DNA from: the human T2T-CHM13v2.0 reference genome, Homo sapiens
Strand: one strand, 5' to 3'
Assembly (NCBI RefSeq): GCF_009914755.1
Contig: NC_060931.1
DNA: 64,000 bases
The notes beneath the pieces are model-generated. The model saw only the letters and a program-made list of their open reading frames with translations, had not been told where the DNA came from and did no database searches. Made by a program: the position numbers and the translations under genes. Positions 19,314 through 62,683 of this stretch are shown here, in pieces (position 1 is the stretch's first letter; the number at the start of each line of letters is the position of its first letter).

Positions 19314-19922
19314 TGATCCGCCCGCCTCAGCTTCCCAAAGTGCTGGGATTACAGGCATGAGCCACCGCGCCCGGCCTCTGCCCTTCTTTTCAGTTGCTGC
19401 ATAGTCTCCATTGCATGGTCCTACTGTGTCCATCTCATCAGTTCCTTAGGAATTAGTGCTTAGGGTAGCTGCAGTCTCTGCCACTCTCACCATGGCTGCA
19501 GAGCGTGTCCCGGCATATATTTAATGTGTTTCACTTTGTCTACTCCTGCAAATGGATCTGCAGACGTTCCTGTCAGTGGAATTGTTAGGTCAAAGACGAT
19601 GCATGTCTTCCTCTGAGTATTGATTGTCACGTCTCTCACACTGACATATGCTACTGATTGCAAATCTATGTGGATGCTGCTGTATCAAATAACATTCAAA
19701 TTAGTCGCAAAGGAAAAGAGAGATGGATTCCTTTCATATGAATTGTCCAACATAGGCAGGTGCACGGGGACAAAGTGGAAGAAGGGGAGAGCCTGTGATG
19801 GATCTGAGGTGGTTGTTGTTTTTGTTTTGTTTTACTGCTCCTTGTGGGGTAGGTCCTCCTCGTAGACAGTGTGCCCAGCATAGCCCAAGGTTTCTTTCTT
19901 TCTTTTTTTTTTTTCTTTTTGA

Positions 19923-20948: not shown

Positions 20949-22783
<1,835 letters not shown>

Positions 22784-23399: not shown

Positions 23400-25265
<1,866 letters not shown>

Positions 25266-30276: not shown

Positions 30277-32567
<2,291 letters not shown>

Positions 32568-40134: not shown

Positions 40135-41217
<1,083 letters not shown>

Positions 41218-41849
41218 ATGCTTAAAAATTTAAAGAGGCAGCAACAACCACTTTTCTCAGTGAACTAATTCCTACAGTTGAGGTCTCAAGCACAACCACA
41301 CAGGGTTCTAACTAGGTGCTCTCAAGTACCAGGCAGGGTTTAACCCTGAGTTTCATTGTAATGTGTCCATGGTATTGCATGATGTCTAGATTTGATGTCC
41401 TTGCATTATGAGAACATAAGAACAACATATAGTAACAGAAACACATGATGCATGGTGATTTGGAGGAGTCTCGCGGTTGGAGGAGAGCGGACAAACCGTA
41501 ATGATGTGAAGTGAAGAAGCACTCATTAGAGAAGTGCCCAGCGAGCAGAAGCAAACGAAAAAGAAAGCAATCGCTGTGAGCATCAGAAACCAATGTGTAT
41601 GTCCCCAGTGAAGGGCTACCAAACGGAAGTTCCTGGAGCGCCAGGGCTCTCTGGGAAGAAACCCGTACAGGGTCCTGTGTGGCAATGGTGGGTCAATGGA
41701 AGCAGAGATACCAATGAATGTTTTCACTGGTCATTGAATTTCTCTTACCCTGTTTGTTAGCATTCATTCAAAGAAAACGAGGTCAAGGCCAGGTGCGGTG
41801 GCTCACACCTGTAATCCCAGCACTTTGGGAGGCCAAGGTGGGCGGATCA

Positions 41850-61533: not shown

Positions 61534-62102
61534 GAGGGGCCAAATTTTAAATTGTGTATAATTTTAATGACTTCAGATTTAAATAGCTGCATTTGGCTTA
61601 TGGAGTCTTTTGAGCAGCATGGTTTTAAAAAGGTTTTTGCCAAGTGGGGTTCTAATGGACACCTATGCTTGTAGAGCTCTGATGTGAGTGATCTGCTGTA
61701 GAAATTACTTCTTTTGATTTAGTATATTATTTTAAAATGCAGGTGATGCACTGGTTTCTTGGTGAGGGAAGCTGGTTTTTCCTGGCTGAGCTTCTGTAGG
61801 GTGGAGGGCTGGAGTCCAGGCTCTCGCTGGGCAGGGAAGGCAGCTTGAGTGTGCCTTCCAGTCCTCCTGAGGGCCCACTTTTTCTGGGATCACCTGTTTT
61901 CTGTAATGTGCATTGAACACACGGGCCAGGAGAAGAGGGAAGTAGAGGAGCTTTGTCCTCTGTGCTCATCCTCACAGTGCTGGGCGGGCCAGAAGGATTC
62001 AGGGCCAACCTTAGGGAGATGAAGGCCAGTTAAAATGTTTTATTGCCACAAATGGTGTCTTTTAAGAAATGAATCCATGTATTTTACACTTAAATGATAT
62101 TA

Positions 62103-62151
62103 GGCTACTCCGGGCACACTGCCTATGGGGTAGCCCTGCTCTGCAAGGAGT

Positions 62152-62182
<31 letters not shown>
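62103..62182 (+). mobile_element. Short (52-nt body + A28) retroposed element, copy 2
   Basis: GGCTACTCCGGGCACACTGCCTATGGGGTAGCCCTGCTCTGCAAGGAGTAGT followed by a pure poly(A) run at 62155-62182. Confidence 0.65.
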
Positions 62183-62185
<3 letters not shown>

Positions 62186-62683
62186 AAAGATACAACTTAG
62201 TTTCTCTGTGACTAGGGAAATCGTCCAAGTATGTATCAAATAATGCTAATTGGTACCTAGTTTTATATCTTGATTAGGCAACTTTTTGCTTAAAATTGTT
62301 TTGGAATGCATTAGTATTTCTACAGCTTCAGGCTGCTTTATCATCTAATACACAGTTGGATATTTAATATATAGTTTTATCAGTTTTTTTTAAACACTGT
62401 TTTTGAGAGGTCTGAGGAAAAAAAAGATAGTGTTACCAAAAATACTTCTATAGGGAAATACTGATAGAAATGTATAGGTAGCCTTGAAATTCTGAAGTTA
62501 ATAAAAAAATTTGAATGCAGGTAACCTTTCATGGAGTTTGTCAAATTTTAAATTGTGTCTTACATCAGTGATGACTGAAGCAGTAAGGAGTGAGCTTGCA
62601 GCAAACAGTGGGGATTGTTGCAGCATCAGCACTTCAGCCAGCTCTGCAGGTTTCCTTGGAGACACGTGGATTTCTCTTTCTAG

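What the first reader, a model, noticed from the sequence alone, without database searches (positions are those of the whole stretch)
62103..62182. 52-nt two-hairpin, poly(A)-tailed mini-retroelement present twice, related to an ERV LTR segment
Seen: 62103-62154 (+, then A28) and 41166-41217 (-, then a degraded A-rich tail) have the same 5' end (GGCTACTC), the same 3' end (AAGGAGYAGT) and the same 52-nt length, with no gaps and 41/52 identity. The sequence folds into two adjacent hairpins: GGCTACTC pairs with GGGTAGCC around an inner GGGCA-cac-TGCCT stem, followed by CTGCTC-loop-GAGYAG. The core CTGCCTATGGGGTAGCC matches 16/17 nt of the MER41B LTR in this window (23727-23743, minus), just upstream of the LTR poly(A) signal region. 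It does not resemble the Alu, 7SL, tRNA or snRNA sequences I know. Inference: a short structured RNA with fixed ends, possibly an LTR-initiated prematurely terminated transcript analogous to HIV TAR short transcripts, was repeatedly retroposed by L1. Two copies in 64 kb hint at a sizeable SINE-like family that maskers may label only as an LTR fragment. It may already be catalogued.
Basis: partly seen in the sequence, partly recalled or inferred. Interest (0 to 1): 0.7.

Follow-up and report, generated by a model that had tools for sequence, protein, structure and literature searches.

The report
Retrocopied start of retroviral LTR transcript
This is an old, dead DNA copy of a very short capped RNA that began at the promoter of an ancient endogenous retrovirus LTR and ended after two hairpins, one of at least about a hundred such copies pasted into the human genome by the LINE-1 machinery.

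Summary
Window 62103-62154 (+) plus A28 and 41166-41217 (-) are two copies of a 52-nt element. A third, more decayed copy lies at 19834-19885 (-).

The family is real. I inspected 98 retroposed copies on many chromosomes. They share the same 5' and 3' ends and have A tails and target-site duplications.

The whole 52-mer also sits inside a roughly 460-490 bp class-I (ERV1-type) LTR. There it starts about 31 nt after a TATAAA box, and it ends 7-30 nt before the LTR's AATAAA. It is therefore the first half of R.

Retroposed copies start with a G that the LTRs do not encode (65 of 80 against 3 of 35). This is the known mark of a reverse-transcribed cap. At least two LTR subfamilies gave copies with the same ends, which argues against a single master copy.

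Best reading: L1 retrocopies of a roughly 51-nt capped, prematurely ended LTR transcript, analogous to HIV TAR short RNAs. How the A tail arose is inferred, not shown.

Divergence of about 10-15% suggests roughly 50-80 Myr. The parent is not the window's own LTR. Its Repbase/Dfam name could not be established here.

The parts
62103..62154 (+). Retrocopy body, copy 1: an untemplated G followed by the first 51 nt of the R region of an ERV1-type LTR. It folds into two hairpins.
   Evidence: It is 94% identical to the same stretch inside the LTR copies L033 and L035. It lies in the first intron of DNAJB6, on the same strand as the gene (gene table in the brief).
62155..62182 (+). Pure A28 tail of copy 1.
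   Evidence: It is the longest pure A run among the 80 copies measured (see the slip note on that call).
62090..62099 (+). Possible 5' target-site duplication of copy 1. It pairs with 62184-62192 at 9 of 10 with one indel, and 3 nt lie between it and the element.
   Evidence: Read. It was not among the exact repeats of 8 nt or more, so it is weak.
62184..62192 (+). Possible 3' target-site duplication of copy 1.
   Evidence: Read. Weak.
41166..41217 (-). Retrocopy body, copy 2. It is more decayed.
   Evidence: 78-80% to the LTR copies; E 1.3e-13. It is 41 of 52 identical to copy 1. An 8-nt flank repeat, 41218-41225 against 40817-40824, matches 7 of 8.
41133..41165 (-). Degraded A-rich tail of copy 2. 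A full Alu inserted after it (about 40841-41132), followed by that Alu's own A run.
   Evidence: A masked block spans 40814-41171.
19834..19885 (-). Retrocopy body, copy 3.
   Evidence: 75-77% to the LTR copies; E 3.2e-06, profile positions 1-52.
19811..19833 (-). A-rich tail of copy 3.
23727..23743 (-). A 17-nt stretch in the R-start region of the window's own, related LTR that resembles the element (16 of 17). This LTR is a relative of the source family, not the source.
   Evidence: E 0.016. This LTR does not fold into the two-hairpin module (z -0.80). Its U3 shares 41-45 nt at 80-85% with the parent LTRs (23891-23937).

Best explanation
Window 62103-62182 is a dead-on-arrival retrocopy made by the LINE-1 machinery through target-primed reverse transcription. 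The two further copies at 41166-41217 and 19834-19885 are the same kind of thing.

The template was a capped RNA of about 51 nt. RNA polymerase II started it at the U3/R border of an ancient class-I (ERV1-type) LTR, and it ended 1-2 nt after the second of two stable hairpins. That end lies inside R, before the LTR's own poly(A) signal.

Shown: the anatomy in the LTR, the fixed ends, the extra 5' G, the A tails, the target-site duplications, and origin from more than one LTR subfamily.

Inferred:
- The 3' end arose by promoter-proximal premature termination or cleavage, with the two hairpins protecting both ends, as with HIV-1 TAR short RNAs.
- The short RNA then received an A tail (some with one extra U first) by a non-canonical route.
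- That tail made it a substrate for L1.

The copies have no evident function of their own. Their value is as a nucleotide-resolution fossil of that transcript.
For: Parent LTR.
- The whole 52-mer lies in LTR copies that are 463 and 487 bp long, begin TG and end CA, and have 4-bp flank repeats in 2 of 2 examined (L033, L035).
- Among 66 distinct LTR-embedded copies, 44 keep an exact TATAAA. In 28 of those it lies 83 nt before the module's end, which is 31 nt before its first position.
- An AATAAA, ATTAAA or AGTAAA follows 7-31 nt after the module in 40 of the 66.
- One paralogous pair of retrocopies (L071, L075) shows the LTR's real poly(A) site further downstream.

5' end.
- Of 80 retroposed copies, 54 start GG, 8 start at the templated G, and 18 have the local alignment starting later. 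Most of those 18 look mutated rather than truncated.
- Position 1 is G in 65 of 80 retroposed copies but in 3 of 35 LTR copies, where T is seen in 25 of 35 (Fisher p 1e-13).

3' end.
- All 80 copies end at or within a few nt of the same point. They then run into A: 25 directly, 21 after extra T, the rest after 1-3 other letters or a decayed A-rich stretch.
- The LTRs have no A run at that point.

L1 marks.
- Exact flank repeats of 8 nt or more occur in 24 of 80 loci, against 1.9% of 6320 mismatched pairs. Thirteen of those 24 start with AA.

Several sources.
- A second LTR subfamily has an inserted G in the 5' arm, a matching change in the 3' arm, a different end of U3 and a shorter R. It has its own retrocopies with the same two ends (12 LTR copies and 8 retrocopies among 20 loci).

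Structure.
- Well-kept copies of both subfamilies fold into the same two hairpins: -30.2, -27.8 and -29.7 kcal/mol, z -4.3, -4.2 and -4.7.
- 85.8% of cells are paired in 47 LTR copies, against 40-51% when the partners are slid.
Against: - No RNA data: the short RNA, its cap and its tail are inferred from DNA alone.
- No RefSeq gene starts or ends at 100 LTR copies examined, so the start site has no independent support here.
- The element holds no poly(A) signal, so a normal poly(A) tail is not expected, and the route to the A tail is open.
- There is no covariation beyond shuffles (85.8% paired against 85.6%; covariation score reached by 44 of 500 shuffles). Selection on the fold therefore rests on one compensated indel between subfamilies.
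- Three of 35 LTR copies do have G before the start, so a G-bearing source cannot be excluded for every copy.
- Three copies in one 64-kb window is far more than a family of some hundreds predicts.
- The target-site duplication of window copy 1 itself is weak.
Confidence: 0.8

Rival explanations
1. Same source RNA, but the A tail is not its own. The L1 reverse transcriptase began on the poly(A) of another RNA (L1, Alu or mRNA) and switched template to the 3' end of the short RNA. Alternatively, the short RNA was ligated to a tailed RNA before copying, as proposed for U6/L1 chimeras.
For: The element has no poly(A) signal (read). U6 is joined to L1 or other RNAs by ligation before retrotransposition (PMC6789731, search listing with the start of its abstract only). 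Non-A letters lie between the element and the A run in many copies.
Against: In the 98 copies inspected, the element is followed directly by an A run or a decayed A-rich stretch. None is followed by a piece of L1 3' end or mRNA. Where an Alu follows, it is a complete Alu behind the tail, which fits a later insertion. Chimeras of the U6 type usually keep part of the second RNA (recalled, from no call).
Confidence: 0.2
2. A true SINE: one or a few retrocopies became master genes with their own promoter and spawned the rest.
For: The ends are fixed, the element is short, and there are hundreds of copies. Four loci (L119, L126, L123, L134) share about 13 nt in front of the element. This could mean a copy was copied again.
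Against: No tRNA, 7SL, 5S or other Rfam likeness was found. Retrocopies follow the diagnostic letters of at least two LTR subfamilies, including an indel. Retroposed and LTR-embedded copies are equally diverged (14.7% against 14.5% off the commonest letter in columns 1-33). No run of T that would end a polymerase III transcript follows the element.
Confidence: 0.06
3. Ordinary 5'-truncated retrocopies of long LTR-terminated transcripts, or internal priming on an A-rich stretch. On this view the fixed 5' end is a place where the reverse transcriptase stalls at a hairpin.
For: Hairpins can stop reverse transcriptases (general knowledge). One retrocopy pair of a longer LTR transcript exists (L071, L075).
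Against: The 3' end lies before the LTR's poly(A) signal, and the LTR has no A run there. A stall would not add a G that the template lacks. Truncated copies of longer transcripts would include the rest of R.
Confidence: 0.03
4. Not retroposed at all: LTR fragments left by deletions that lie next to A-rich microsatellites by chance.
For: None beyond the shared sequence.
Against: The two ends are identical in dozens of loci on many chromosomes, and A runs, flank repeats and the extra G are all present.
Confidence: 0.01

Closest known systems
HIV-1 TAR short RNAs from non-processive LTR transcription (PMC4872094; abstract seen)
   Same: The RNA starts at the LTR start site, consists of a stable 5' hairpin structure in R, and ends just after the structure, long before the poly(A) site.
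   Different: Here the virus is an ancient class-I (gamma-like) ERV rather than a lentivirus. There are two hairpins in 51 nt, and no trans-activator is known. The RNA is known only from its DNA retrocopies. Retrocopies of TAR RNA are not something I know of (recalled, no call).
m7G-capped pre-miRNAs / TSS-miRNAs (PMC6009592; abstract seen)
   Same: Short capped polymerase II transcripts whose 5' end is the start site, that fold into hairpins, and that exist as stable small RNAs.
   Different: The stems here are short (33-nt and 18-nt hairpins). The only Rfam miRNA hit is chance-level (mir-320, 14.4 bits against a gathering score of 55.5, E 2.4). No small-RNA data were available.
HERV-W processed pseudogenes made by L1 (PMC5537654 and PMC5016936; search listings with the start of the abstracts)
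   Same: An ERV transcript that starts at R and is copied by L1, with an A tail and flank repeats.
   Different: HERV-W copies are long (R-U5 ... U3-R) and end at the LTR's normal poly(A) site. These are 52 nt and end inside R. The abstract of PMC5537654 calls HERV-W the sole HERV group specifically mobilised by L1. This family would be a second, very different case.
Retropseudogenes of small RNAs (U6, Y RNA and others) and microRNA retrocopies (PMC6789731 and PMC7692494; search listings only)
   Same: L1-made copies of short non-coding RNAs. The retrocopies preserve the ends of the parental transcript.
   Different: The source here is a promoter-proximal by-product of a retroviral LTR, not a cellular RNA gene. 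The 5' G points to a polymerase II cap.
SINEs and SVA (non-autonomous L1 passengers)
   Same: Short, A-tailed, L1-dependent, hundreds of copies. SVA also shows untemplated 5' G (PMC3287187; passages seen).
   Different: There is no internal promoter and no sign of self-sustained amplification. Copies derive again and again from LTR promoters.

Membership tests
L1-mediated retrocopy (processed retropseudogene) | A tail directly at the 3' end of the copied RNA | tested here: met
   A28 in window copy 1. All 80 copies run into an A run or a decayed A-rich stretch within a few nt of the same end. The junction pattern gave 69 matches against 0 in the control.
L1-mediated retrocopy (processed retropseudogene) | Target-site duplications of about 7-20 bp | tested here: met
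   For the family: exact repeats of 8 nt or more in 24 of 80 loci against 1.9% of 6320 control pairs. For window copy 1 alone the result is inconclusive (9 of 10 with an indel). For copy 2 the match is 7 of 8.
L1-mediated retrocopy (processed retropseudogene) | Insertion at A-rich sites of the TT/AAAA type | tested here: inconclusive
   Thirteen of the 24 exact repeats begin with AA and 17 begin with A (list). The nick site itself was not scored against a control.
L1-mediated retrocopy (processed retropseudogene) | Lacks the promoter (U3) of its source and is dispersed over the genome | tested here: met
   The upstream flanks of the 80 copies are unrelated to U3 and to each other, apart from two paralogous pairs. 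The copies lie on many chromosomes.
R region of a class-I (ERV1-type) LTR | Lies in a repeat that begins TG, ends CA and has 4-bp flank repeats | tested here: met
   L035 706-1192 has GTTT on both sides. L033 729-1191 has GAAG on both sides. The shared stretch among 7 copies runs from about 270-290 nt before to about 190 nt after the module's start. Only 2 LTRs were checked for flank repeats.
R region of a class-I (ERV1-type) LTR | Starts about 25-32 nt after a TATA box and precedes the AATAAA | tested here: met
   of 66 distinct LTR copies, 44 keep an exact TATAAA, and in 28 of those it is 31 nt before position 1. A poly(A) signal lies 7-31 nt after the module in 40 of the 66. The rest are decayed or were not matched by the exact words used.
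R region of a class-I (ERV1-type) LTR | A named Repbase/Dfam family | not testable with these tools
No repeat library was available. Printed MER4D primers (PMC8711646) amplify chr21:39842451-39842535 in T2T-CHM13. That locus has no module and no similarity to the parent LTRs, so the parent is not that MER4D.
SINE | Head derived from tRNA, 7SL or 5S with an internal polymerase III promoter | tested here: not met
   ARAGORN found 0 genes. No Rfam family reached its gathering score, and only chance-level hits appeared at E of 2 or more.
SINE | Copies descend from master copies of the SINE itself | tested here: not met
   Retrocopies carry the diagnostic letters of two different LTR subfamilies and are as diverged as the LTRs. 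Four loci with a shared 5' extension are a possible small exception.
TAR-type short LTR transcript | 5' end at the LTR's start site, capped | tested here: inconclusive
   This is supported indirectly by the TATA spacing and the untemplated G (PMC3287187). There are no CAGE or RNA data, and no annotated gene start at 100 LTR copies.
TAR-type short LTR transcript | 3' end just after a stable 5' stem-loop and before the poly(A) signal | tested here: met
   The end lies 1-2 nt after hairpin 2. The poly(A) signal lies downstream in the LTR.
TAR-type short LTR transcript | Release by a viral trans-activator that binds the hairpin | not testable with these tools
   No such factor is known for this ERV. 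Inner genes were not examined.
Capped pre-miRNA | A hairpin long enough for Dicer, and matching small RNAs | tested here: not met
   The hairpins are 33 and 18 nt. The mir-320 hit scores 14.4 bits against a gathering score of 55.5. Small-RNA data were not available.
HERV-W-type processed provirus | R-U5 ... U3-R ending at the normal poly(A) site | tested here: not met
   The copies end inside R. None of the 66 LTR-context copies began at the start site without U3.

The most novel reading that the evidence does not exclude
The two-hairpin module at the start of R was a working attenuator of an ancient gamma-like retrovirus, a TAR-like checkpoint outside the lentiviruses. Its stable, capped by-product of about 51 nt was abundant in the germ line of early primates. 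It was exported and tailed, perhaps with a role of its own as a decoy or small-RNA precursor. L1 copied it hundreds of times over the active life of several LTR subfamilies. The retrocopies would then be a base-by-base fossil of polymerase II premature termination from roughly 50-80 million years ago.
Probability: 0.2. Interest if true: 0.8.

Novelty: new variant of a known kind. Interest (0 to 1): 0.6.

Why it matters
L1 is known to copy mRNAs, SINEs and some small cellular RNAs. Among human ERVs, only HERV-W is described as mobilised by L1 (PMC5537654, start of abstract).

Here a different class of template appears: a promoter-proximal, prematurely ended LTR transcript. If this holds, it has four consequences.

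- It maps the start site and an early stop of an extinct retrovirus's promoter at single-base resolution without any RNA.
- It shows that short capped RNAs of this kind could reach the L1 machinery and carry A tails.
- It suggests that TAR-like early termination is older and wider among retroviruses than the lentiviral case.
- It flags a set of short 'LTR fragments plus (A)n' that repeat maskers probably file under the LTR's name. Such fragments would inflate counts of that LTR and hide a distinct origin.

For the locus itself (first intron of DNAJB6) nothing points to a function.

Tried and rejected
Leads that went nowhere:

- Rfam on the element and on four family loci gave nothing at gathering score. 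At E up to 10 only chance-level hits appeared. ARAGORN found nothing.
- Covariation on 47 LTR copies was no better than shuffles. This is expected for decaying copies.
- The window's own LTR is not the parent.
- My recollection that the parent might belong to the MER4 group was tested with printed MER4D primers. They do not hit my LTR loci at up to 4 substitutions. The amplicon locus L188 has no module and no similarity to the parent LTRs. The name stays open.
- A table of ERV1 families in PMC5753468 (passages seen) lists names but no sequence.
- No RefSeq gene end coincides with the predicted start site or poly(A) site at 100 LTR copies.

Literature:

- Searches, and a search for three natural sequence strings (0 papers), found no description of this family.
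- The preprint 10.1101/2025.02.02.635956 on L1 chimeras does not mention ERV or MER4, and mentions LTR only in passing, in the passages found.
- Supplementary tables of that preprint and of PMC7692494 could list such copies, and I could not see them. PMC7353768 held nothing relevant.

Census:

- The 19-mer with up to 3 mismatches gave 1975 matches against a control of 49. The reversed control is rich in CpG and so underestimates chance, so I did not use this count.
- The random genome sample planned to measure copy density was not obtained.
- A polymerase III (U6-type) reading was considered because of an octamer and a TATA box in U3. I dropped it because no T run follows the element and the spacing of the motifs does not fit. 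This rests on recalled consensus, with no call.

Full report
**1. The observation**

Window 62103-62154 (+) reads as the finding says and is followed by 28 A. On the minus strand, 41166-41217 has the same first eight letters, the same end and the same length. Forty-one of 52 letters are identical, by my count. Its tail is A-rich but decayed, and a complete Alu follows it. The 17-mer at 23727-23743 (-) in the window's LTR matches 16 of 17. A BLAST of the later-found parent LTRs and a profile of the family showed a third, more decayed copy at 19834-19885 (-) with an A-rich tail (E 3.2e-06).

**2. The family**

A 70-nt query around copy 1 found 515 first-look candidates in the reference. Forty were scored, at 86-94% identity apart from the query's own locus, and most began at the element's first base.

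The 30 saved loci show the same start and the same end, followed by an A run. Many have plain flank repeats. Twenty-two ungapped copies are on average 88.3% identical pairwise, range 78.8-98.1%.

Patterns taken from natural copies gave these counts:

| Pattern | Mismatches allowed | Matches | Reversed control |
|---|---|---|---|
| Whole element | up to 3 | 17 | 0 |
| Last 19 nt plus ten A | up to 3 | 69 | 0 |
| Last 19 nt alone | up to 2 | 637 | 2 |

I gathered 101 entries (100 loci plus window copy 2). They reduced to 81 distinct loci. One, L135, proved to be LTR-embedded and was dropped, which left 80.

**3. The parent**

Some hits had T, A or C instead of the first G and had no A tail. Fetched with flanks, they lie inside a repeat of about 460-490 bp that begins TG and ends CA. 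L035 706-1192 has GTTT on both sides, and L033 729-1191 has GAAG on both sides. These 4-bp flank repeats are as expected of class-I (gamma-like) ERVs (general knowledge).

The junction of the element with the following LTR sequence gave 199 matches against 0 in the control.

In 66 distinct LTR-embedded copies:
- An exact TATAAA survives in 44. In 28 of those it lies 31 nt before the element's first position.
- An AATAAA, ATTAAA or AGTAAA follows 7-31 nt after the element's end in 40.

The paralogous pair L071 and L075 is a retrocopy of a longer LTR transcript. It ends in an A run further downstream, which shows the normal poly(A) site (one event only).

So the element is the first half of R, from the expected start site to a point before the poly(A) signal.

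**4. The 5' end**

Of the 80 retroposed copies, 54 begin GG and 8 begin at the second G. In 18 the local alignment begins later. Reading those 18, most are full length with mutations or small indels, and two or three are truly truncated.

Position 1 is G in 65 of 80 retroposed copies and in 3 of 35 LTR copies. In the LTRs T is seen in 25, A in 3, C in 3, and there is one gap (Fisher p 1e-13).

Among the 18 further retrocopies seen later, I read GG at the start in 12.

[quoted passage not shown] This fits a capped polymerase II transcript copied to its very end.

**5. The 3' end and tail**

After the last shared letters, 25 of 80 copies go straight into four or more A. Twenty-one have one or more extra T first. 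The rest have one to a few other letters or a decayed tail.

In LTR copies the next letter is A in 47, C in 11, G in 5 and T in 3 of 66. The extra T is therefore mostly untemplated (Fisher p 5e-04). A few copies run 3-5 nt further into R (L108, L157, L183).

The end lies 1-2 nt after the base of hairpin 2.

**6. L1 marks**

Exact flank repeats of 8 nt or more occur in 24 of 80 loci, against 1.9% of 6320 mismatched pairs. Repeats of 10 nt or more occur in 12 of 80 against 0.3%. Thirteen of the 24 begin with AA.

For window copy 1 the best candidate is weak: 62090-62099 against 62184-62192. For copy 2, 41218-41225 matches 40817-40824 behind the Alu at 7 of 8.

**7. More than one source**

A query from a variant retrocopy (245 candidates, 40 scored) and 20 small fetches showed a second LTR subfamily. 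It differs in four ways:
- one extra G in the 5' arm of hairpin 1;
- changed letters in the 3' arm that restore pairing in a shifted register;
- a different end of U3, with the same 31-nt TATA spacing;
- an AATAAA only about 7 nt after the element.

Twelve of the 20 loci are LTR copies (T before the start in 11) and 8 are retrocopies with the same two ends.

A third LTR type with yet another continuation after the element appeared, and I saw no retrocopies of it. The ends are therefore a property of the LTR's transcript, not of one master copy.

**8. Numbers**

All 84 exact matches of the 19-mer were classified: 32 are retroposed and 52 are LTR-embedded.

Applied to about 635 net matches with up to 2 mismatches, this suggests about 240 retrocopies with a well-kept second hairpin. 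Allowing for decay, I infer some hundreds in all. Ninety-eight were inspected one by one.

The count with 3 mismatches (1975) is not usable, because its control is rich in CpG. No further copy lies in the 127,357 bases of the first 138 saved loci, the central one aside.

**9. Fold**

Well-kept copies fold into two adjacent hairpins:

| Copy | Free energy (kcal/mol) | z-score |
|---|---|---|
| Window copy 1 | -30.2 | -4.29 |
| L004 | -27.8 | -4.15 |
| Second-subfamily LTR copy | -29.7 | -4.72 |

The decayed window copies 2 and 3 no longer fold this way (z -0.87 and +1.46). In 47 LTR copies 85.8% of cells pair, against 40-51% with slid partners. Shuffles do as well (85.6%), so there is no statistical covariation.

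The compensated indel between subfamilies is a single event. In the full R of one copy, the 3' arm of hairpin 2 can pair instead with a downstream stretch (L033). I note this but do not build on it.

**10. Age**

In columns 1-33, which were not used to pick the sets, retroposed copies are 14.7% off the commonest letter and LTR copies 14.5%. Half the mean pairwise difference is 12.6% and 13.0% respectively. Subfamily mixture and the indel inflate these figures. Over all 52 columns of the selected sample the values are 11.6% and 10.0%.

LTR copies of one subfamily are 72-84% identical pairwise over about 400 nt.

Using recalled neutral rates of 1.7-2.2e-9 per site per year (from no call), 10-15% gives about 50-95 Myr. 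I take roughly 50-80 Myr, early in primate history, with wide error. The retrocopies are as old as the LTRs themselves.

Window copy 1 is among the best kept: on average 47.0 of 52 letters are identical to 21 other copies. By the count, which I flag as a slip, it has 2 of 52 differences, 95% interval 0.5-13%. It also has the longest pure A run. Its own age is therefore open. Copy 2 (9 of 52 by the same flagged count) and copy 3 are clearly old.

**11. Family name**

By its LTR features the parent is a class-I (ERV1-type) element related to the window's LTR. The shared parts are 41-45 nt of U3 at 80-85% and the 17-mer. It is not the same family: the 3' end is different and the window's LTR has no two-hairpin module.

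It is also not the MER4D that printed primers amplify.

Without a repeat library I cannot give the Repbase/Dfam name.

**12. Mechanism**

Shown: the anatomy, the ends, the extra G, the tails, the flank repeats and the multiple sources.

Inferred:
- Polymerase II started at the templated G, paused or terminated early, or the RNA was cut or trimmed back.
- The two hairpins protected both ends, as with HIV-1 TAR short RNAs made by non-processive transcription (PMC4872094, abstract). This also resembles capped hairpin RNAs that start at start sites (PMC6009592, abstract).
- A non-canonical tailing step added A, sometimes after U.
- L1 then used the tailed RNA.

The template-switch or ligation route for the tail remains a live rival.

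**13. What stays unexplained**

- Three copies lie in one 64-kb window, where 0.005-0.02 are expected. Their flanks differ, so this is not a local duplication.
- The extra T at the 3' end of about a quarter of the copies.
- The A28 tail of copy 1.
- Four loci with a shared 13-nt 5' extension.

I found no description of this family in the paper library. Supplements were closed, and the repeat databases could not be consulted.

Noticed in passing
window 19834-19885 (-), tail to about 19811: A third, decayed copy of the same 52-nt retrocopy, just behind the A tail of an Alu. Three copies in 64 kb, spaced about 21 kb apart, is far above what the genome-wide counts predict.
   Followed up: partly
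window 20971-21102, 21501-21558, 22484-22781 (+) and 30857-31080, 31847-31991 (-): Stretches 70-80% identical to the locus that printed 'MER4D' primers amplify (L188). The window therefore holds pieces of two oppositely oriented MER4D-like LTR elements, unrelated to the finding.
   Followed up: no
L031 (chr15:67843351-67845402 in T2T-CHM13), around 988-1052: An LTR copy whose U3 is replaced by an inverted piece of the same LTR (its end and hairpin 2 in reverse complement), directly abutting the R start with GG. This is a rearranged or inverted-duplicated copy.
   Followed up: no
L071 (chr10:88.74 Mb) and L075 (chrX:119.22 Mb): A paralogous pair. The last roughly 40 nt of U3 plus all of R end in an A run at the LTR's normal poly(A) site, and both share the downstream flank. 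This is one retrocopy of a longer LTR transcript that was later duplicated.
   Followed up: partly
L071, L075 and L090, upstream of the TATA box: In three LTR copies, A-rich tails of other insertions abut the same AAAAGT-type site in U3. This suggests the site attracted L1-type insertions.
   Followed up: no
L119/L126 and L123/L134: Four retrocopies share about 13 nt directly 5' of the element. Within each pair the flanks are shared further out. Either they come from an upstream start site of one LTR variant, or a copy was copied again with a little flank.
   Followed up: partly
80 retroposed loci, 3' junction: Twenty-one of 80 copies have one or more T between the element's end and the A run, while LTR copies have T there in 3 of 66. 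This may be untemplated uridine added to the RNA.
   Followed up: partly
U3 of parent LTRs, e.g. L035 about 915-930 and L033 about 915-925: A TTCnnnGAA (GAS-like) word and an ATTTGCAT octamer lie shortly upstream of the TATA box. The window's related LTR also has a TTCCAGGAA word (about 23843-23851, minus strand). The motif meanings are recalled and were not tested.
   Followed up: no
L145 (chr18:67280114-67280326): An LTR copy of the second subfamily lies 434 nt from the annotated MIR5011 gene. No link was examined.
   Followed up: no
window 62124-62169 (+): A chance-level Rfam hit to mir-320 (14.4 bits against a gathering score of 55.5, E 2.4). mir-320 is the textbook capped pre-miRNA (recalled), but the score gives no support.
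   Followed up: yes
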